From a virus (lineage: Duplodnaviria > Heunggongvirae > Uroviricota > Caudoviricetes), in IMG/VR virus record IMGVR_UViG_2778261687_000004, positions 1-14,113 of that record: a DNA stretch of 14,113 nucleotides. The stretch is one strand, 5' to 3'. A program made the position numbers and the translations under genes. Shown piece after piece: positions 1,435-13,114 of this stretch (positions are counted from its first letter, which is position 1; each line of letters begins with the position of its first letter). Below the pieces are notes generated by a model, which was not told where the DNA came from, did not search any database, and saw only the letters and a list, made by a program, of their open reading frames with translations.

Positions 1435-1641
1435 CTTCATTTTCACTTTTTTAAATCCAACGACAGACGGCTGGCATTTAAGTATTGTGAAATATTATCA
1501 AATGTAATCATCATTGATTTACAAAAGATACATTTTGCCCCGAAAGGATTCATGTCAGAAACATCAAAAGATGATGTTCTATACTGGGAACCATGACAAC
1601 ACGGGCATCTAAAGTGAATATGGTTTGTAATATTGTCTACC

Positions 1642-1854
1642 TCAAAGCGCCACTACATGAACAGCGGCAGGACCTTTAGGTCCGTTCTCAATACCAAATT
1701 CAACTTCCTGATTCTCAGTTAATGTTTTGAAATCGTTGCTCTGAATTGCTGAGAAATGGACAAACACATCTTTGCTGCCATCTTTCGGCGTGATGAAACC
1801 AAAACCTTTTTCAGGGTTAAACCATTTCACTAAACCAGTCATTTTGTTAGACAT
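1642..1854 (-). CDS. cspI: Cold-shock protein, CspA family (70 aa)
   Basis: [38 protein letters not shown]... contains the canonical cold-shock domain RNP motifs (KGFGFI, VFVHF). Paralog assignment is by synteny next to the lysis cassette. Confidence 0.88.
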
Positions 1855-2216
1855 AATTATTACCTTTTGAAGAAATTAGCCCTTGGGCAGAATGGTCCGA
1901 AAAAAAATATCAGAGAGAAAAACCAACAAGGAAATCTCAAGAGGTACAAATAATAAAATTATAACAATGACTGCTTCAGATAAATTTGTAACAAACCAGA
2001 ACACCATTAACGCATGATTAACCACCCATAGCAAGGATTACTTTTGTAAAGAAAAACACAGCAATGAAAGAATAGCTTTATTTATTAATAAAACGTGTCA
2101 TTCTGATTAAGACCTTTTATCTTACCCTTAAGATTTCAGGAATTTTGGCTCATGGAAGAGTCCTTTTTATTTAAATTTTACATTCCGCGATGTAAATGTT
2201 CCGATTTAATATTACC

Positions 2217-3771: not shown

Positions 3772-3990
3772 ATCCTCACCCCGATGTACACGGATGGTGC
3801 AATATGTTTGAAAAGATCGGAGTCTACGGGGTAGTTTTGACAGCACACGTTGTTCTCAACGGCGCTAAAAAAACATACACATTAAAAATGTGGGTAATTA
3901 TTTTGAAAGAAAGTCATATATAAAATAATAATACGAGAAATGTTTTCATATTTAGTGTACTGTATACGGCCATTTATACAGGAAAAGCCT

Positions 3991-4161
3991 ATGTCAGAAC
4001 GTAAAAACTCAAAATCACGCCGTAATTATCTCGTTAAATGTTCCTGCCCAAACTGCACCCAAGAGTCAGAACACAGTTTTTCAAGAGTACAAAAAGGTGC
4101 CCTTTTGATCTGCCCTCATTGCAACAAAGTATTCCAGACAAATCTTAAAGCTGTAGCCTGA
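3991..4161 (+). CDS. ynfU: Small zinc-ribbon protein (56 aa, CxxC...CxxC), YnfU-like
   Basis: ATG 3991 with RBS AGGAAA 5 nt upstream; MSERKNSKSRRNYLVKCSCPNCTQESEHSFSRVQKGALLICPHCNKVFQTNLKAVA carries two CxxC pairs. Symbol from memory of K-12 small-protein annotation, not verified. Confidence 0.6.
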   Translation: MSERKNSKSRRNYLVKCSCPNCTQESEHSFSRVQKGALLICPHCNKVFQTNLKAVA

Positions 4162-4220
4162 TTGATTTTATTAGTAACAAGTATTTTTTATATTTTAATA
4201 ATATATTTAAAGCAGATAAT

Positions 4221-4243
4221 AAAAAACCCGCCTGAGCGGGTTT
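4221..4243. terminator. Bidirectional intrinsic terminator between convergent ynfU-like (+) and cspB (-)
   Basis: A6-CCCGC-CTGA-GCGGG-TTT; on the minus strand the stem is followed by U6. Confidence 0.6.
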
Positions 4244-4524
4244 GAGATTGTGGTGCTTTTTGTGGGAGTCATCCACTTACGCACTTTGTTTTGCCATGCC
4301 AGCAGTTAGCTTCTGCTGTAAAACTATTCATGCAGCAAACCTGCACTTCACCACAATGGTTAGCATACTTTTCCTGATTAAGATTTTGCCAAATATGCTA
4401 GCCATTGTTTCATGTATTGGACCTCCTTACTTTTTATTAAAGAGATCCAATATTCACTACTCTGTCCGTATCTCTACTCAGGCATCAGCCTTCTTCGTTA
4501 TCGTATACAGACGAGCGATGAATT

Positions 4525-4740
4525 TTAATCAGTAATGATGACATTTGCTGCTGCAGGACCTTTAGCACCACTCTCTATAGAGAAGGTAACCTTTTGACCT
4601 TCAAATAAGGTTCGATAATTATCATTCTGAATCGCAGAAAAATGCACAAACACATCTTTACTACCATCAACAGGAGAAATAAAGCCGAAACCTTTATCAG
4701 CGTTAAACCATTTTACTAAACCAGTCATTTTATTTGACAT
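4525..4740 (-). CDS. cspB: Cold-shock protein, CspA family (71 aa)
   Basis: [67 protein letters not shown]...; RBS AAGGAA; long 5' leader. Confidence 0.88.
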
Positions 4741-4757
4741 TCTACATTCCTTAACTT

Positions 4758-4769
4758 GAGCCTTTCGGC
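4758..4769 (-). promoter_or_regulatory. csp 5'-UTR 'upstream box'-like element (GCCGAAAGGCTC) just 5' of the cspB SD
   Basis: Minus strand reads ATGCCGAAAGGCTCAAGTTAAGGAATGTAGA-ATG. This is one mismatch from the cspA-family upstream-box consensus GCCGAAAGGCACA as I recall it. Confidence 0.5.
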
Positions 4770-5040
4770 ATAAATGGTTTGCATAACAGAAACGACTTCG
4801 TACTTAATTGGAGAGACTCAAAGAAGGAATAAGTGAATAACACCTGAAATGAGAACTGCTTTAGTAAACTACTTCGTATATCGTCTGTTCTTCAAACCGA
4901 CGCAATCATTAACGCATAGTTGAACATATGAAGCAATGTTTATTTTAGACATCCAGCCATCTTCAACCCCATCAAAAAACTATAGCTTTCTTCAGGAACG
5001 TGTGTATAGTGCGCCAAGTTATCAGTATTAAGGAATTTTT

Positions 5041-6440: not shown

Positions 6441-7325
6441 TTACGCCAGTACGCCAATTGCCAGCGCGCGATCGATAAAACGAAATATCAGCTCCAGTTG
6501 AGAGCCATACTTATCTTCAAATGCCACTGTATCCGTATGCAGCTCGTTGTGATGCTTTCTGCACAAAGGCAACACAAAGAGATCATGTGCTTTTGTTCCC
6601 ATTCCGCCCTGCCCGTGACCAATCAGATGATGCGGATCGTCGGCTGGCATACCGCAGCAAGCACACGGCTGTGTCTTAACCCAACGTGTGTATTTCTCCT
6701 TAACCCAGCGGCGACGTTTAGGCAGCTTCATGAAAGATTCCGGAGACTCTGGATCAACGGTGATGCTTACCACCGTCTTTTCCTGTGGTGATTTTTGTTG
6801 CTGGTGGGCGTAAGGCAACGGTGCAAGATTTTTTGTGCGTTGTTTCAATATGCTGGTGGCGGTCTGCTCTCCCGGTACGATGTCGCTTTCGCGGTACACC
6901 GAGCAGATTTTTTCCGCTGGTAATCCCAGCGAACGACGCGATACAGCCTCAGGTAGTGCATCCACCACCTGATTGCAGACCGCCCACCAGGATAATTCAG
7001 CCAAAGATAATTCCCGCTCCTGCGTACCGCTTATTGCGTGACGGATGACGTCAATCACCCATGCTGTCAGATTTTGTTGAGCAAGCAGCTCCAGTGATTC
7101 CGATGTCTGGTCACGCAGTTGGTTGTCGCAGTGCCAGCACAACACCATTGCGCCGGTACCATAACGGTGAATGACTGTTTCAGTGTGATGGTAATCGCCA
7201 TTAGGCCACTGGCAGGATGTAACATGACGTAATAGCCAGTCGGACAATGCGCCAACCCGCGCCTGCGGTAAGAATGAATCAGCCATTCGGCCTGTTCTGC
7301 AGTGCATGGAGGGTGCTGGAACCAT
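6441..7325 (-). CDS. ydfU: DUF968-family prophage protein with C-terminal HNH/zinc-finger-like motif (YdfU-like); probably the 3' portion of a frameshifted gene
   Basis: 294-aa ORF; C-terminus CACCGMPADDPHHLIGHGQGGMGTKAHDLFVLPLCRKHHNELH. Its ATG is immediately preceded by an in-frame TGA and has no SD. Confidence 0.8.
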   Translation of the reverse strand: MVPAPSMHCRTGRMADSFLPQARVGALSDWLLRHVTSCQWPNGDYHHTETVIHRYGTGAMVLCWHCDNQLRDQTSESLELLAQQNLTAWVIDVIRHAISGTQERELSLAELSWWAVCNQVVDALPEAVSRRSLGLPAEKICSVYRESDIVPGEQTATSILKQRTKNLAPLPYAHQQQKSPQEKTVVSITVDPESPESFMKLPKRRRWVKEKYTRWVKTQPCACCGMPADDPHHLIGHGQGGMGTKAHDLFVLPLCRKHHNELHTDTVAFEDKYGSQLELIFRFIDRALAIGVLA

Positions 7326-7414
7326 TCAGACTTGAATGCGTGAGAATACCGCCCGTGCGTGCAGGCAAGAACGGGCGAATTATCAGAATTGTAATATTTT
7401 GCGTTGCGTGCCAT
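7067..7414 (-). CDS. ORF with good RBS that overlaps ydfU in another frame; likely the true 5' end of ydfU (frameshift near 7250-7260) or, less likely, a separate overlapping gene
   Basis: ATG 7414 preceded by CCGGAGAAAACCG. The first ~50 aa look protein-like (MARNAKYYNSDNSPVLACTHGRYSHAFKSEWFQHPPCTAEQAEWLIHSY...); the remainder is low-complexity (C/W/T-rich) while the ydfU frame becomes protein-like at the same point. Confidence 0.35.
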   Translation of the reverse strand: MARNAKYYNSDNSPVLACTHGRYSHAFKSEWFQHPPCTAEQAEWLIHSYRRRGLAHCPTGYYVMLHPASGLMAITITLKQSFTVMVPAQWCCAGTATTNCVTRHRNHWSCLLNKI

Positions 7415-7752
7415 CGGTTTTCTCCGGTGGCACGGTGTTACTCAGCGGGAGTTCAGCCCCGCGCAAGATTGTAGATGAGTTTATTCTCCTGAAAAAGCAG
7501 AAAAGCCAGCTTTTATTCCGATCTCTTTCAATGCCTGTAATGAAGTGACAAACTCACCTTCGCGCAAGATAAATCCGTCCGTGACCTGACCTGTCGATAA
7601 AGGAACGTAACACGTTTTATGCAACACCCGCATGCGGCAGAAAATTATTGCCGAACGTTTACCCCTGTCAACAAGCTTTACTTTCTGAGGCGCGCCAGCC
7701 CGCGAGGAAAACAATCTGAACATCAAACAATTAATGACACAAGAAATACGAT

Positions 7753-7779
7753 TAAAGATTTTTTTGTGCATGCCGATAG
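7753..7779 (+). promoter_or_regulatory. Sigma28 (FliA) class promoter for flxA
   Basis: TAAAGATT (7753-7760), 11-nt spacer, GCCGATAG (7772-7779), matching the sigma28 consensus TAAAGTTT-N11-GCCGATAA; lies 24 nt upstream of the flxA ATG. Confidence 0.65.
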
Positions 7780-7802
7780 TGCTTTTTTAAAAGGAGAAAT
7801 CT

Positions 7803-8135
7803 ATGTCTGTCACAATTCAGGGAAATACCTCAACCGTTATTTCAAACAACTCCGCCCCGGAAGGAACATCAGAAATAGCCAAAATCACAAGACAAATTCA
7901 GGTGCTGACTGAAAAGCTTGGGAAAATCTCATCGGAAGAGGGGATGACGACACAGCAGAAAAAAGAAATGGCTGCATTGGTACAGAAGCAAATTGAAAGC
8001 CTCTGGGCTCAACTGGAGCAGTTGTTAAGGCAGCAGGCAGAGAAAAAGAATGAAGACGCGACAGTTCAGCCTGATAAAAAAGAAGAGAAAAAAGACGATA
8101 CAAATACCGCTGGCACCATTGATATTTACGTCTAA
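7803..8135 (+). CDS. flxA: FliA-regulated prophage protein FlxA (110 aa)
   Basis: MSVTIQGNTSTVISNNSAPEGTSEIAKITRQIQVLTEKLGKISSEEG...; RBS AAGGAG; sigma28 promoter upstream. Recognised from memory of FlxA. Confidence 0.85.
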   Translation: MSVTIQGNTSTVISNNSAPEGTSEIAKITRQIQVLTEKLGKISSEEGMTTQQKKEMAALVQKQIESLWAQLEQLLRQQAEKKNEDATVQPDKKEEKKDDTNTAGTIDIYV

Positions 8136-8149
8136 GTGACAGCCGTATT

Positions 8150-8172
8150 GTGGCCCTCATCGGGCCACTTTT
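8150..8172 (+). terminator. Intrinsic terminator of flxA
   Basis: GTGGCCC-TCATC-GGGCCAC followed by TTTT, 15 nt after the flxA stop. Confidence 0.7.
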
Positions 8173-8571
8173 CGCCATCAGCCTTTTCTTTAAAGACATA
8201 TTATCTTTGTATCATTTCTGATAGTTAACATTACAAGATATAAGTAATGGACGCACTCCCAATTAGTCTATTTAAATCGCCACGAGTTTAACTGACAACC
8301 CATGATCAATTATGAATTGCAACTATTTCTGTAGTCACTTTTGTGGGGACAGTCCACAAAACTGCCAACTTCCGCTTCTTGCTCTTAGCGGACATTAGCA
8401 TAGGCTATTTACCATAACGCCTCATTACGCGCACCGCCCAGACTGACTCAGCGCGTTTCTGGCATATCCCCGGTAAAACAAGTAACAAACCACCCGAAAA
8501 TGAACACCAGAAACGCGACTTAAGAATCTACCCTATGAATGGATATGCACTCAACCGAATCGATCTTGGTT

Positions 8572-9885
8572 TCAATCTTTTTTATCGGGATCAGGCTTCT
8601 TTTTAGGTAACTTCGGGGGCTTAACTTGCTGATGACTTTGCGTTCGGCGCGTAAGCCAGGGATGGTCAGCTTTAGGTTTAACATAGTATTTTGAGCGTAA
8701 ATCAATACGGGCATTATCCACTCGTTCATGGACACTCTTTTCATCATCCAGTGGTATAGGCTCCGGGCCATCAACATACTTTTCCCAGCCCAGCGCTTTC
8801 CCGTCATACAGAACGTTAATTTCACCGTCAAAGTTCTCGCATACAGTAACAACCGAATGCCTAAGTCGATATCCCCGGCCCTCACTGCGTACCTGAAACG
8901 CACTGCTTTTGTACTGGAAAGTGAGATTTTTAGACAGAACGCGCTTCGCCTGTAGGCTGAAGATATAACCCAGTTCCTCTTCAGAATGGTGCACATCAAG
9001 ATGAGCATTATCAGTAGTACGAGGCGACGTAGCGAACCGGTTGTTATAGGCTTCAATAAAGGTCGGCAACCATGCATTTGCTGTTTCAATATCACTGATA
9101 TTCTGAAGCCGCATTTCTTTGACCAGCCTGTCCTGTAGTGTCTGATTGGCGCGCTCTACCCGCCCTTTTGCCTGCGGGCTGTTGGCATGGATTGGCTCGA
9201 TGCCCAGTGTCTTTATCGCACGAGTGAACTGGGTCAGCTCACCTTCCCGCTCTGGGTTATTTACCCTGAATATACTGTGTCTATCAGAGTAGAGAGCGAG
9301 CGGTACGCCATGATCATTAAGGTAACCCCGGAGGGTTTCCATGTAAGCCCGGGTTGTTTCAGCAGGCACAAAACGCAACGCCATCAACGCACTGGTGGCA
9401 TCATCAATGAAAACGATCAGTGTACATCTGGGGCCTCGATTTTCAAACCAGTCATGAGGTGAGCCATCAATCTGGATCAGTTCACCGTAAGATGGTCGTC
9501 GCATGCGGCGTTGATATATACGGGCAATTTTACGACGGCGTTCACGCCATAACCCCTCTTCTATCATCCACTTTCTGAGAGTTTCAACGGATAAAGATAA
9601 ACCGTGTATCTCGCGCAATTTTTCGCACGCAAACGTAGGTCCAAAATCAGCGTAACGGCCTTTGAGGAGTGAAATTACTGTTGCTCTGAATTCAGTAGAA
9701 AAGGAATTATTAGGACGCTTTCCACGTCGGTGGGAAACCAGACCAGAAGGCCCTTCATTTCTATACCGTTGCACCAGACGTTTAACCTGCCGAATAGAAA
9801 TGCCAATGCGTGCCGCAGCTTGTTCCTGAATAATCTGAAGTCGGTGGAGTTCCTTATGACTCATCGTAACAGTCTCTTTGATCAT
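8572..9885 (-). CDS. Transposase-like protein, N-terminal HTH plus DDE/rve integrase-core domain and C-terminal extension (437 aa); probably IS481-family-like, family not verified
   Basis: N-terminal HTH (GISIRQVKRLVQRYRNEGPSGLVSHRRGKRPNN); D residues in LIQIDGSPHDWF and VFIDDATS; HANSPQAKGRVERANQTLQDRL resembles the retroviral-integrase-type E motif. RBS TGGGGGAT upstream of ATG 9885. Confidence 0.8.
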   Translation of the reverse strand: MIKETVTMSHKELHRLQIIQEQAAARIGISIRQVKRLVQRYRNEGPSGLVSHRRGKRPNNSFSTEFRATVISLLKGRYADFGPTFACEKLREIHGLSLSVETLRKWMIEEGLWRERRRKIARIYQRRMRRPSYGELIQIDGSPHDWFENRGPRCTLIVFIDDATSALMALRFVPAETTRAYMETLRGYLNDHGVPLALYSDRHSIFRVNNPEREGELTQFTRAIKTLGIEPIHANSPQAKGRVERANQTLQDRLVKEMRLQNISDIETANAWLPTFIEAYNNRFATSPRTTDNAHLDVHHSEEELGYIFSLQAKRVLSKNLTFQYKSSAFQVRSEGRGYRLRHSVVTVCENFDGEINVLYDGKALGWEKYVDGPEPIPLDDEKSVHERVDNARIDLRSKYYVKPKADHPWLTRRTQSHQQVKPPKLPKKKPDPDKKD

Positions 9886-9973
9886 GAAAAATCCCCCAGA
9901 GAATTGTCTGGGGACATTTTAGAATGGTTCAAAGGGGACATTACAGCTTGGTGTTAACAATAGCCTGCTTCTC

Positions 9974-9989
9974 CGTGCCTTTCGGCACG
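9974..9989 (-). other. GNRA-tetraloop hairpin (CGTGCC-GAAA-GGCACG) resembling a csp 'upstream box', followed by SD-like GGAGAAG, with no nearby start codon
   Basis: Minus strand reads ACGTGCCGAAAGGCACGGAGAAGCAGGC; GCCGAAAGGCAC matches the cspA-family upstream-box consensus as I recall it. Confidence 0.4.
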
Positions 9990-10219
9990 TAAGAGGCTAA
10001 CCTACATGTGTCTAGCATGAAATTGGCCTCAGATTAATGTTAAGCGTCTTGCAGGACGCGTAATGTTAACTGGGGCTTTTCTCTATCTGCCGTTGGTGTC
10101 CATGCCCGAGGCAGATAGCCTCAAGCACCCGCAGTCATTCTACTTAACTAAGATTTCCCCGCAAACCGTTTTTGTCCAGCACAGTAAATATCCAACTAAA
10201 CCAATGGAGTTCGCTGTAT

Positions 10220-10399
10220 TTACCGCCAGTATTCAATGCACATGACCGCCATGAACACCCCTAAAAAAAGGGCATTTATATATCCAAATATTAATATCAA
10301 AACATCAACTTTTTCCATATACCTTGCTGTGAAGATGATGGGCATACATGATGCGAACAACCAGAACGCAACAAACAAAAACTGCAATGCGTTTTTCAT
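10220..10399 (-). CDS. Candidate small membrane protein (59 aa, two predicted TM helices)
   Basis: Strong SD AGGAGG 4 nt upstream of ATG 10399; MKNALQFLFVAFWLFASCMPIIFTARYMEKVDVLILIFGYINALFLGVFMAVMCIEYWR. The longer track ORF starts with GTG and lacks a usable SD. Confidence 0.5.
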   Translation of the reverse strand: MKNALQFLFVAFWLFASCMPIIFTARYMEKVDVLILIFGYINALFLGVFMAVMCIEYWR

Positions 10400-11016
10400 T
10401 ATTCCTCCTACAATCAATGTGCAATTACATTTAAACACACCTCAATTTGGCCGGACATATAAATATCTAAACCAGAAAAAATCACTTACATAGCGTTACA
10501 AACTCTTTAGTCTAAAGGTTCATCGTAAAACATTCCCCATACTTATCAGTCCGTTCCGCGCCAGGTAGCTCATTGCCTTATCTGGCAACCTGTAATCAGG
10601 TTTCCGCTTTTTCAGTTGGCTGGTCGTTTAACCGACATAGTTAATCCATTAATCTAGTTGCCGGATGTTGGTGGATTTTCGCGTTTTAGTTGTTCATAAA
10701 AGTGCACAGCTTTAACCAGTTCTTCTGATGTAACTGGGACTGGTGAGGCAGTGAATAAGGCCTGAATTTGATAGTTCGGCCTGTCGTTACAATCCTCTTT
10801 TTTCGGTACATATTTCCAGTCACCAGACCACTACTTCCCCTGAAAGTCCGTAACGCCTTTTTTCACGTAGCGATATCGCCATGCCACTGGTTTTGCTTGC
10901 CCCGCCGTTTCATGCCCTTCCTGATAATTAATCTCGCTCATTCATCGCCCCACTCATCACAATATGCTTCGACCGGAGTTTTTCCCGCTTCATAGTCATC
11001 ACGCTAGGATTCGACA

Positions 11017-11316
11017 TCAGCAGCACTTCCACCGCGTAGCCTCCATAATTGCAGGCACTAGCGCCGTGAACTTTTCACGCTTATCCCTGGTGTCGATAGC
11101 CTTCCAGCGTTCAAATATCTTCACTCGATTAACGCCAAGCGCTCGCTGATCAATCGCGCCACCTTCATATGTGACACGCTGAACATCGATGTTCGGGCGC
11201 TCTTTCAAAGCCCAGAATGCTTCAGTGATTAATATCGTCGCCTGCTCCTGTGTCATTCCTGGTCGACATATCCAGGCATCCAGAGCCTCACGAGCCTGTT
11301 CAGGAGTGATTTTCAT
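11017..11316 (-). CDS. Hypothetical 99-aa protein immediately downstream of dicC, overlapping it by 17 nt (ydfX position)
   Basis: ORF MKITPEQAREALDAWICRPGMTQEQATILITEAFWALKERPNIDVQRV...; the dicC stop (11300-11302) lies inside it in another frame. Weak SD. Confidence 0.5.
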   Translation of the reverse strand: MKITPEQAREALDAWICRPGMTQEQATILITEAFWALKERPNIDVQRVTYEGGAIDQRALGVNRVKIFERWKAIDTRDKREKFTALVPAIMEATRWKCC

Positions 11317-13061: not shown

Positions 13062-13114
13062 TTTCTGGTGACGTTTGGCGGTATCAGTTTTACTCCGTGA
13101 CTGCTCTGCCGCCC
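13062..13114 (+). ncRNA. dicF: DicF small regulatory RNA (about 53 nt; ftsZ-targeting), processed from the dicB operon transcript
   Basis: TTTCTGGTGACGTTTGGCGGTATCAGTTTTACTCCGTGACTGCTCTGCCGCCC followed by TTTTT (13115-13119), between ydfC and dicB; recognised from memory of the DicF sequence; preceded by a GC-rich structured region. Confidence 0.8.

What the first reader, a model, noticed from the sequence alone, without database searches (positions are those of the whole stretch)
8173..10219. Transposase-like gene between flxA and dicC with no recognisable terminal inverted repeats
A 437-aa HTH plus DDE (rve) protein is flanked by about 400 bp and 330 bp of non-coding DNA. I could not find convincing terminal inverted repeats: the best candidate is a 12-bp inverted match AGTTAACATTAC at 8222-8233 and 10061-10072, half of it the GTTAAC palindrome, with no target-site duplication. 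The flanks do carry structured elements: a palindrome TTTTGTGG-N7-CCACAAAA (8339-8361), an 11-bp inverted repeat CGCGTTTCTGG/CCAGAAACGCG (8452-8462 and 8507-8517), and a hairpin CCCCAGA-N6-TCTGGGG (9894-9913). It is either an IS with atypical ends, a degraded IS, or a domesticated prophage-encoded transposase.
Basis: partly seen in the sequence, partly recalled or inferred. Interest (0 to 1): 0.5.

Follow-up and report, generated by a model that had tools for sequence, protein, structure and literature searches.

The report
One-ended remnant of hok-targeting ISEsa1 transposon
The gene is the transposase of the known insertion sequence ISEsa1; its second end seemed missing because the real mobile unit is a larger transposon carrying flxA and the relBE toxin-antitoxin genes, usually found at the start of hok toxin genes, and this copy has lost its far end by deletion.

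Summary
The 437-aa ORF (8572-9885, minus strand) is real. It is an IS1202-family (ISNCY) transposase, identical to the ISEsa1-type protein except for an in-frame 9-aa deletion.

IRL lies at 9934-9959, followed by one 15-bp target duplication (9960-9974) and an orphan sok/hok leader (9959-10130).

The partner end, IRR (19/26 match), is absent from this window. In K-12-type Qin prophages, a Shigella chromosome, and IncI and IncF plasmids it sits just beyond relE. The mobile unit is therefore IRL-tnp-cargo-relB-relE-IRR, 3.3 to 12.8 kb long, with TSDs of 13-16 bp (mostly 15).

At least 11 different hok-family loci carry it at the same position, the Shine-Dalgarno/start-codon region. Removing the element restores known intact loci exactly.

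The 1.6-kb "ISEsa1" of the literature (weak TIRs, no TSD) matches only the conserved transposase arm.

In this window a 1,426-bp deletion (junction 7581-7586) removed IRR, relBE, ydfV and hokD, so the copy is immobile.

The window feature is a degraded known element. The redefined ends, the relBE passenger and the hok targeting appear undescribed in the papers I could search.

The parts
8572..9885 (-). Transposase gene, 437 aa. It is ISEsa1-type (IS1202 family) with an in-frame 9-aa deletion (ESINRHITQ) before the HTH. Putative catalytic residues are D140, D201 and E244, with D161-D162 between the first two and Q251 at E+7.
   Evidence: NCBIfam NF033594 (ISNCY_2 transposase) scores 456 bits against a cutoff of 250. 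It is 437/437 identical to the 446-aa ISEsa1-family protein of L007 apart from the 9-aa gap. The residue pattern was read against the family signature quoted. Its last 49 codons are K-12 ydfW.
9934..9959 (-). [quoted passage not shown]
   Evidence: Single exact match in the window, none in shuffles. Homology to an uninterrupted hokD locus (L005) starts at 9960, and homology to the IncI plasmid copy stops at 9961. It matches IRR at 19/26 and the IRL of the simple Hahella IS at 23/26.
9960..9974 (.). Right-hand copy of the 15-bp target-site duplication, ATAGCCTGCTTCTCC. This is the hokD Shine-Dalgarno sequence through 'AT' of the start codon, read on the opposite strand.
   Evidence: The same 15 bp precede IRR in K-12-type L006 and flank both ends in Shigella L022. 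They occur once in the empty site of L005.
9959..10130 (-). Orphan hokD leader / sok region. This is the target locus, now separated from the hokD coding sequence, which is itself deleted here.
   Evidence: Rfam RF01794 sok, 104 bits (gathering 59), full-length model. It is 96% identical to the region directly upstream of hokD in L005.
9893..9914 (-). Stem-loop followed by ATTTTTC and then the transposase ATG. It probably shields the transposase from read-through transcription coming from the hok promoter and masks its ribosome-binding site (inferred).
   Evidence: Terminator-like hit (8 pairs, 5 G-C). It is conserved in all plasmid copies shown.
8367..9959 (-). Conserved 'transposase arm' shared by all cargo variants: 1,593 bp here and 1,620 bp without the 27-bp deletion. 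It probably corresponds to what the literature lists as the 1,609-bp ISEsa1.
   Evidence: The ncr-type plasmids L007 and L010 share homology only from 8367 onwards. The arm is 1,606-1,620 bp in pairwise comparisons of six cargo types. ISEsa1 is listed as 1,609 bp, TIR 15/22, no TSD in PMC10132070 Table 7.
9824..9834 (-). Site of the 27-bp in-frame deletion relative to full-length ISEsa1 copies.
   Evidence: BLAST pieces overlap at 9824-9834 with about 17 extra bases in L003, L004 and L007-L010. The protein gap is shown.
7587..8366 (+). Retained passenger segment of the transposon: the ydfV 3' tip, flxA (7803-8135) and its downstream spacer, which includes the 8339-8361 palindrome.
   Evidence: It is co-linear at 99-100% with the interior of the 3,301-bp element in L022, L009, L008 and L006. 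Pfam FlxA hit.
7581..7586 (.). Junction of a 1,426-bp deletion at GTGACC microhomology. The deletion removed the 5' part of rem, hokD, the left TSD copy, IRR, relE, relB and most of ydfV.
   Evidence: Window 7254-7586 matches L006 2023-2355, and window 7581-8756 matches L006 3782-4957. IRR is absent from the window at up to 3 mismatches. This junction is not found contiguously in any of 5,426 complete E. coli genomes.
8452..8517 (.). 11-bp perfect inverted repeat in the 3' untranslated part of the transposase arm. Function unknown.
   Evidence: I24. It lies inside the arm conserved among cargo variants. No T-run follows it.

Best explanation
The interval holds the transposase end of an ISEsa1-type transposon of the IS1202 family, the subgroup with TSDs of about 15 bp.

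The complete element reads IRL - tnp - variable passenger genes - relB - relE - IRR. In the Qin form it is 3,301 bp and carries flxA and ydfV. Its ends are 26-bp imperfect inverted repeats beginning TGT. On insertion it duplicates about 15 bp.

About half of the distinct insertion sites seen lie in the translation-initiation region of hok-family toxin genes. The duplicated 15 bp begin right after a GGCAA that closes a small stem-loop, and they span the Shine-Dalgarno sequence and the start codon. Insertion splits hok from its promoter, mok leader and Sok target, and places hok downstream of relBE. This accounts for the relB-relE-hokD (relBEF) operon of K-12.

In this window the element sits in hokD of a Qin-type prophage. 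It was later crippled in two ways. A 1,426-bp deletion removed IRR, relBE, ydfV and hokD, and a 27-bp in-frame deletion shortened the transposase. It is now a one-ended, immobile remnant next to an orphan sok.

Shown: the family assignment, both ends, the TSDs, the empty sites, the repeated hok association and the deletions. Inferred: DDE-catalysed transposition (probably copy-out/paste-in, as reported for a family member), how the target is recognised, the insulating role of the 5' hairpin, and loss of mobility.
For: Family assignment:
- NF033594 scores 456 bits against a cutoff of 250.
- PGAP labels identical genes 'IS1202-like element ISEsa1 family transposase'.
- The protein is identical to that family protein apart from 9 aa.

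Ends:
- IRL is exact at 9934-9959.
- IRR, TGTCAACGCAAAGCAGAAGTGTCACC, lies just past the relE stop codon in L006 and L009, L011 and L008 and 14 further loci.
- IRL matches IRR at 19/26, P = 3.6e-7.
- A simple 1,449-bp relative in Hahella, with at least 10 copies, has near-identical ends and 15-16-bp TSDs.

TSDs: perfect repeats of 13-16 bp, mostly 15, each with a different sequence, flank 14 elements of 3.3-9.1 kb and the 12.8-kb ncr/chr element.

Empty sites:
- hokD in L005.
- The reconstructed pnd site is 100% identical over 200 nt to ColIb-P9 and R64.
- The reconstructed IncF hok site is 100% identical to ENNIH2/3 plasmids.

Target choice:
- 21 distinct IRL flanks were found. Of these, 11 are different hok-family leaders joined within 1-2 nt of the same position, and a 12th (L026) abuts the hok coding side in the opposite orientation.
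- The downstream ORFs are Pfam HOK_GEF.

Architecture: tnp arm of 1,606-1,620 bp plus a relBE arm of 713 bp, conserved across cargo types.

Window damage.
Against: No transposition experiment exists for this element. Mobility of the 3.3-kb unit is inferred from comparative junctions only.

I could not consult ISfinder or TnCentral. The identification of the 1,609-bp ISEsa1 entry with the transposase arm rests on matching length and on Table 7 of PMC10132070.

About 9 of the 21 insertion sites are not hok, so targeting is a strong preference, not an absolute rule. One hok site (L026) has the opposite orientation.

Some spread between closely related hok loci by homologous recombination cannot be excluded for sites that share the same TSD (L008/L012 versus L013-L018).

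The window itself holds only one end and one TSD copy, so the whole structure is inferred from relatives.
Confidence: 0.85

Rival explanations
1. A stand-alone 1.6-kb ISEsa1 with weak 15/22 terminal repeats and no target duplication, as catalogued. On this view flxA and relBE are merely neighbours in the prophage.
For: PMC10132070 Table 7 lists ISEsa1 as 1,609 bp, TIR 15/22, with no TSD in multiple examples. The conserved transposase arm is about that long. The ncr-type and flxA-type copies diverge at 8367.
Against: Inverted matches around the gene reach only 14-15 of 22 and fall at positions unrelated to the homology boundaries, which is noise level. There is no TSD at the 8367 boundary. In contrast, perfect 13-16-bp TSDs and a 19/26 TIR bound the larger unit in at least 15 contexts, and three exact empty sites exist. 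relBE stays linked to IRR whatever the cargo.
Confidence: 0.06
2. A domesticated, prophage-encoded transposase-derived gene retained by Qin-type prophages for a host or phage function.
For: It sits at the same prophage position in about 800 of 5,426 complete E. coli genomes and in one sequenced phage, PhiR42_1. The ORF is intact here and its catalytic residues are present.
Against: The same sequence (98-100% identical) is on plasmids of several genera inside TIR- and TSD-bounded elements. Related prophages have an uninterrupted hokD instead. E. coli copies decay in several different ways: the 27-bp deletion, the K-12 truncation to ydfW, and IS1, IS3 and IS903 insertions.
Confidence: 0.03
3. 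A single ancient insertion into one hok locus that later spread to other hok loci, on plasmids and prophages, by homologous recombination in the flanking hok sequence. There would be no site-specific transposition.
For: hok loci share flanking homology (window 9960-10500 matches thousands of hok regions). Some sites share an identical TSD, GGAGAAGAAGGCCAT, in L008, L012 and L013-L018.
Against: At least 10 hok-type sites have different 15-bp sequences that are nevertheless duplicated perfectly, or match the local leader, at each site. The adjacent leaders also differ. Recombination would carry the donor TSD along. Non-hok sites with perfect TSDs show active transposition (L015, L023, L024, L029, L043). 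Reconstructed empty sites match intact loci at 100%.
Confidence: 0.05

Closest known systems
ISEsa1 (ISfinder; ISNCY / IS1202 group; Cronobacter sakazakii)
   Same: The transposase is the same protein, apart from a 9-aa deletion, as those PGAP names 'IS1202-like element ISEsa1 family transposase'. It is 446 aa, or 439 aa counted from the second Met, which equals the listed Tnp length. The conserved arm of about 1,610 bp matches the listed 1,609 bp.
   Different: The catalogue gives weak 15/22 TIRs and no TSD. Here the functional ends are 19/26 TIRs that enclose passenger genes plus relBE, with TSDs of about 15 bp and a hok-site preference. The window copy lacks one end.
ISTde1 subgroup of the IS1202 family (15-17-bp direct repeats; Siguier/Chandler preprint 10.1101/2022.12.17.520857)
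   Same: TSD length class, ends beginning 5'-TGT, the TGTnAnCACCAAGC-like end sequence, and the HTH + DDE transposase with Q at E+7. The preprint's supplement lists ISEsa1 on the ISTde1 sheet without end or repeat data.
   Different: Members described there are simple IS of 1.3-1.7 kb with no reported target specificity. These elements carry 1.7-11 kb of cargo and a toxin-antitoxin module, and they cluster at hok loci.
ISAjo2/ISAba32 subgroup, including tISKpn21 (IS1202 family elements that insert next to XerC/D dif or pdif sites)
   Same: Same family. They show oriented, site-specific insertion next to a short structured or palindromic target. Some members carry a passenger ORF.
   Different: Their TSD is 3-6 bp, not about 15. 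Their target is a dif-like site, not the hok initiation region. The transposases are only about 41% identical.
relBEF operon / hokD (relF) of E. coli K-12 Qin prophage
   Same: K-12 carries the left half of exactly this element: TSD, IRR, relE, relB, ydfV, flxA and the last 49 codons of the transposase (ydfW). Integration of relBE into the hokD/mok region from plasmids had already been noted by Ramisetty and Santhosh 2016, as cited in PMC6379469.
   Different: That work treated relBE as a minimal horizontally moving TA module. No transposase, terminal repeats or TSD were reported in the texts I could read.
Unnamed 1,449-bp IS of Hahella sp. SMD15-11 (62% identical transposase)
   Same: Near-identical IRL (23/26), IRR beginning TGTCAAC, TSDs of 15-16 bp, and CAA immediately before the TSD in 5 of 7 sites.
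   Different: It is a simple IS with no passengers and no TA module. It is multicopy and its sites are not hok.

Membership tests
IS1202 family (ISNCY/IS1202 group) | Transposase of about 394-507 aa with an N-terminal HTH and a DDE domain, matching the curated ISNCY_2 model. | tested here: met
   NF033594 scores 456 bits against a cutoff of 250. The next best model, IS481, scores 126 against a cutoff of 224. Pfam HTH_32/29/28 score above cutoff.
IS1202 family (ISNCY/IS1202 group) | [quoted passage not shown] | tested here: met
   By inspection: IQID140GS, FID161D162A, YSD201RH, VE244RANQTLQ251. The signature is as described in the preprint quoted. No family alignment was built.
IS1202 family (ISNCY/IS1202 group) | Imperfect terminal inverted repeats of about 22-29 bp that begin 5'-TGT. 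| tested here: met
   IRL is exact in the window. IRR was found in relatives only, with a 19/26 match. IRR is absent from the window.
IS1202 family, ISTde1-type subgroup | Long target-site duplication of 15-17 bp. | tested here: met
   TSDs of 13-16 bp, mostly 15, in 14 complete elements plus L011, L008 and L009. The Hahella relative gives 15-16 bp. The window keeps one copy, 9960-9974.
IS1202 family (simple IS definition) | Size of 1.3-1.75 kb encoding only the transposase. | tested here: not met
   Complete elements are 3,301-12,843 bp and carry relBE plus cargo. They are comparable to the 'transporter IS' exceptions noted.
ISEsa1 (ISfinder entry) | Nucleotide and protein identity to the ISfinder reference (1,609 bp; Tnp 439 aa). 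| tested here: inconclusive
Indirect support comes from PGAP naming of identical genes, Tnp length of 446 aa (439 from Met8), and an arm of 1,606-1,620 bp.
ISAjo2/ISAba32 dif-targeting subgroup | TSD of 3-6 bp and insertion 3-6 bp from a XerC/D (dif or pdif) site. | tested here: not met
   TSD is about 15 bp. The flanks are hok leaders, not dif-like sites.
Domesticated transposase | Loss of both ends, with conservation of an intact gene at a fixed host or prophage locus and no mobile copies. | tested here: not met
   One end is retained. Mobile copies with TSDs occur on plasmids and chromosomes of many genera. E. coli copies show diverse decay.
[quoted passage not shown] | A Sok/leader RNA element and a Hok/Gef-family ORF. 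| tested here: met
   Rfam sok, 104 bits, at 9959-10130. HOK_GEF Pfam hits for ORFs that abut IRR in L013, L019 and L030. HokD is 100% identical in L022. In the window the hok ORF itself is deleted.

The most novel reading that the evidence does not exclude
ISEsa1-type elements are a family of toxin-antitoxin-carrying cargo transposons, so far overlooked, that home to the ribosome-binding and start-codon region of hok-family type I toxin genes on plasmids and prophages. Their cargo includes relBE or TacA/GNAT, and nickel, chromate, arsenic or cation-efflux genes. Insertion cuts Hok off from Sok/mok control and puts the transposon's own type II module in its place. The textbook relBE (relBEF) locus of E. 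coli K-12 would then be the decayed left half of one such insertion, and the 'no TSD, weak TIR' anomaly of ISEsa1 in the IS1202-family literature would come from a mis-set boundary.
Probability: 0.7. Interest if true: 0.7.

Novelty: new variant of a known kind. Interest (0 to 1): 0.6.

Why it matters
In the window itself this is a broken copy of a catalogued IS, which is ordinary. The comparison needed to explain it gives four results that IS and toxin-antitoxin specialists could use.

1. It sets the true ends and TSD of ISEsa1. That removes it as one of the two members of a 'no TSD' subgroup in the IS1202 family classification.
2. It shows a second kind of site preference in this family, hok initiation regions in addition to dif sites. 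A possible shared CAA-N15 rule can be tested in vitro.
3. It gives a concrete origin for the relB-relE-hokD operon of K-12 and for the K-12 pseudogene ydfW/intK.
4. It identifies a vehicle that moves nickel, chromate, arsenic and cation-efflux genes between enterobacterial plasmids while disrupting the plasmid's hok/sok stability system.

Annotation pipelines currently split or mislabel this element.

Tried and rejected
1. Inverted repeats next to the gene. None coincides with a homology boundary, and the 12-mer's right arm is native hok-leader DNA. Rejected as ends.

2. The homology break at 8354 in H10. It is caused by an IS903B insertion plus deletion in that strain and is not an element boundary.

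3. H7/L003 as an independent insertion in a new context. It still carries hok-leader DNA up to 10149 and is cut by IS3 copies on both sides, so it is the same insertion rearranged.

4. The common break at about 10143-10150 in H5, H6 and H7. It lies in the flanking prophage or hok region, outside the element, and was not pursued.

5. Treating 8367-8378 as IRR. There is no TGT-type repeat and no TSD there. It is the arm/cargo boundary.

7. The exact deletion junction of this window was not found in 5,426 complete E. coli genomes, so the source strain was not identified.

8. No structure prediction or large protein searches were run. The family assignment was unambiguous without them.
Full report
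**What is in the window.** The window is a Qin-type lambdoid prophage segment of E. coli. It contains the cspB/cspF thermoregulator leaders, ydfT/ydfU, a rem remnant, flxA, the ORF in question, a sok element, ydfX/dicC/dicA, and DicF. The ORF at 8572-9885 (minus strand) is 437 aa. It scores 456 bits on NCBIfam NF033594, 'ISNCY family transposase', against a cutoff of 250. It has N-terminal HTH domains and a weak rve_3 match. Identical genes elsewhere are labelled by PGAP 'IS1202-like element ISEsa1 family transposase'. Against such a protein the window ORF is 437/437 identical, apart from a 9-aa in-frame gap (ESINRHITQ) just before the HTH. That gap is caused by a 27-bp deletion near 9824-9834. 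The motifs ID140G, D161-D162, SD201R and E244 with Q251 at +7 fit the IS1202-family signature described in the preprint quoted.

The palindrome (8339-8361), the 11-bp inverted repeat (8452-8462 / 8507-8517) and the hairpin (9894-9913) are all present. The 12-bp inverted match is real but lies one base off, at 8223-8234 / 10060-10071. A direct scan for 22-mers in inverted orientation around the gene gives only 14-15 matches, at positions unrelated to any homology boundary. So there is indeed no pair of repeats flanking the gene.

**Finding the ends by comparison.** K-12-type genomes keep only window 7800-8756. K-12 ydfW is therefore the last 49 codons of this transposase, and K-12 lacks window 8757-11035. 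Window 9960-10606 is 96% identical to the DNA directly upstream of an uninterrupted hokD in another lambdoid prophage (L005). Rfam finds a full-length sok/hok-leader match at 9959-10130. An IncI plasmid copy (L009) stops matching the window at 9961. The transposase-proximal end is therefore at 9959. Read inward on the minus strand it is TGTTAACACCAAGCTGTAATGTCCCC, a TGT-initiated end typical of the family.

In K-12-type L006 and in L009 a related sequence in inverted orientation, TGTCAACGCAAAGCAGAAGTGTCACC, lies just beyond the relE stop codon and directly next to the start of hokD or pndA. The two ends match at 19 of 26 positions (P = 3.6e-7). In each case the same 15 bp flank both ends:
- ATAGCCTGCTTCTCC at hokD.
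- ATCATAGCCCCTCCA at pndA.
- GGAGAAGTCAGCTAT at an IncF hok in Phytobacter.
- ATGGCCTTCTTCTCC at an IncF hok in Enterobacter.

The hokD 15-mer occurs once in L005. For the pnd and Phytobacter sites I removed the element and one repeat in silico. The reconstructed 200-nt sequences are 100% identical to intact loci in ColIb-P9 and R64 and in ENNIH2/3 plasmids.

**The element family.** A scan of one genome per species returned 78 loci. In the enterobacterial loci, 14 complete elements of 2.6-9.1 kb were delimited by the same IRL and IRR, with perfect direct repeats of 13-16 bp, mostly 15. All share an IRL-transposase arm of 1,606-1,620 bp. Most share a 713-bp relB-relE-IRR arm. The middle varies:
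- flxA + ydfV (3,301 bp).
- A cation-efflux protein plus cytochrome b561, with or without secondary IS insertions.
- ncrABCY + chrBA (12,843 bp).
- Putative arsenic-resistance genes. This is my reading of the ORF sequences and was not confirmed by a family search.

Two Scandinavium variants carry a TacA/GNAT toxin-antitoxin pair next to IRR in place of relBE. A 62%-identical transposase in Hahella belongs to a simple 1,449-bp IS with at least 10 copies. Its ends are almost the same (IRL 23/26) and its TSDs are 15-16 bp. This confirms that these are genuine family ends.

**Link to the literature.** Harmer and Hall (PMC10132070) list ISEsa1 as 1,609 bp, TIR 15/22, Tnp 439 aa, with no TSD in multiple examples. 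They place it with ISCARN112 in a separate 'no TSD' subgroup. The listed length equals the conserved transposase arm, and 439 aa equals the 446-aa ORF counted from its second Met. I infer that the catalogued ISEsa1 is only that arm. I could not check the ISfinder sequence. The Siguier/Chandler preprint lists ISEsa1 on its ISTde1-subgroup sheet (15-17-bp repeats) without data. The TSDs found here fit that placement.

**Target choice.** Among 21 distinct IRL-side flanks, 11 are different hok-family leaders. Each has its own sequence, a TGCC-GAAA-GGCA-like stem and then GGAG...ATG. All are joined within 1-2 nt of the same position and in the same orientation, with relE reading toward hok and the transposase next to the leader. 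A twelfth, L026, has IRL against the hok coding side. ORFs that abut IRR are Pfam HOK_GEF. Nine sites are not hok, and several of those still have GGCAA immediately before the TSD (L015, L043). The Hahella IS has CAA there in 5 of 7 sites. Different, perfectly duplicated TSDs at each locus argue for independent transposition events, not spread by recombination.

**State of the window copy.** Window 7254-7586 and 7581-8756 match K-12-type positions 2023-2355 and 3782-4957. A 1,426-bp deletion at a GTGACC microhomology therefore removed the 5' part of rem, hokD, the left TSD, IRR, relE, relB and most of ydfV. IRR is absent from the window. The copy keeps IRL, one TSD copy, the shortened transposase, flxA and an orphan sok. 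It should be immobile (inference). The stem-loop plus T-run at 9914-9893, directly before the ATG, lies where transcription from the hok promoter would enter the element. It plausibly insulates the transposase (inference).

**Consequences.** The insertion explains why K-12 hokD lacks its own leader and is co-transcribed with relBE. It also explains ydfW/intK. I found no paper describing a transposon that links ISEsa1, relBE and hok.

**Verdict.** The finding is a degraded copy of a known IS-family element, not a domesticated gene and not an IS with aberrant ends. The broader result is the true structure, the TSD, the TA and cargo content, and the hok preference of ISEsa1-type elements. This is a new variant within a known kind and is moderately interesting.

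Noticed in passing
window 7581-7586 and 9959-10130: This strain has lost hokD, relBE and ydfV through a 1,426-bp microhomology deletion but keeps the sok/hok-leader element. It therefore has an antitoxin RNA gene with no cognate toxin gene. The exact junction is absent from 5,426 complete E. coli genomes. Three genomes (H111-H113) show a different, smaller rem-ydfV deletion.
   Followed up: partly
window 8572-8721; L001 6773-8086: K-12 'protein YdfW' is simply the last 49 codons of the transposase ORF. In a genome identical to the window over 7800-10500 (H2/L001), PGAP still annotates ydfW plus an 'incomplete' ISNCY transposase, even though the 437-aa ORF is uninterrupted. This is an annotation artefact inherited from K-12.
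   Followed up: partly
window 8757-11035: K-12-type genomes lack this 2,279-bp stretch, which holds most of the transposase, IRL, sok and a DUF977-like remnant. The deletion fuses ydfW to the ydfX pseudogene. The window shows the state before that deletion.
   Followed up: partly
window ~9824-9834: The 27-bp in-frame deletion form of the transposase (PGAP: 'ISNCY family transposase') accounts for about 60% of an evenly spaced sample of E. coli hits. The full-length form is labelled ISEsa1 family. Whether the short form is active is unknown.
   Followed up: no
L026 9700-9960: In Citrobacter portucalensis A60, IRL abuts the hok coding side (…TTTCATGGCCTTCTTCTCC|TGTTAAC). This is the opposite orientation to the other 11 hok-site insertions. 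The other end lies beyond the fetched locus, so insertion in reverse cannot be told apart from a later inversion.
   Followed up: partly
L029 and L043 (Scandinavium manionii, S. hiltneri): Diverged elements (about 81% transposase identity) carry a TacA antitoxin / GNAT acetyltransferase pair next to IRR in place of relBE. A toxin-antitoxin module at the IRR end therefore looks like a conserved design feature and not a fixed gene pair.
   Followed up: partly
L031-L037, L040, L041, L057 (Hahella sp. SMD15-11): A simple 1,449-bp IS with at least 10 near-identical copies and 15-16-bp TSDs, usually preceded by CAA. It includes a tandem pair in L032. Whether it is named in ISfinder was not checked.
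   Followed up: partly
L054 9972-9997 (Leclercia adecarboxylata NCTC13032); L027 11529-11600: An IRR is joined directly to codon ~105 of another transposase copy (L054). In L027 an IRR is followed within 10 bp by a second IRL-like end. These look like nested or tandem insertions of the element family.
   Followed up: no
window 9911-9959: The IRL region holds two AATGTCCCC motifs in the same orientation. The inner one (…TTCTAAAATGTCCCC) resembles the IRR of the Hahella IS. GGGGACAGT / GCGGACATT motifs at 8345 and 8390 are in direct, not inverted, orientation. These may be subterminal transposase-binding sites.
   Followed up: no
window 10220-10438 (-): A 72-aa ORF beside the hok leader has no Pfam match and is not annotated in the identical RefSeq region.
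   Followed up: no
L090 (Escherichia phage PhiR42_1, PV340562.1): A deposited 48.7-kb phage genome from ECOR13 carries rem-hokD-relE-relB-ydfV-flxA plus the transposase, annotated as two fragments. A phage genome therefore carries this transposon.
   Followed up: partly
window 1615-2000, 4509-4901, 13063-13114: Two cspA-type thermoregulator leaders (cspI/cspB-type genes) and the DicF sRNA are present. All are ordinary Qin prophage features.
   Followed up: no
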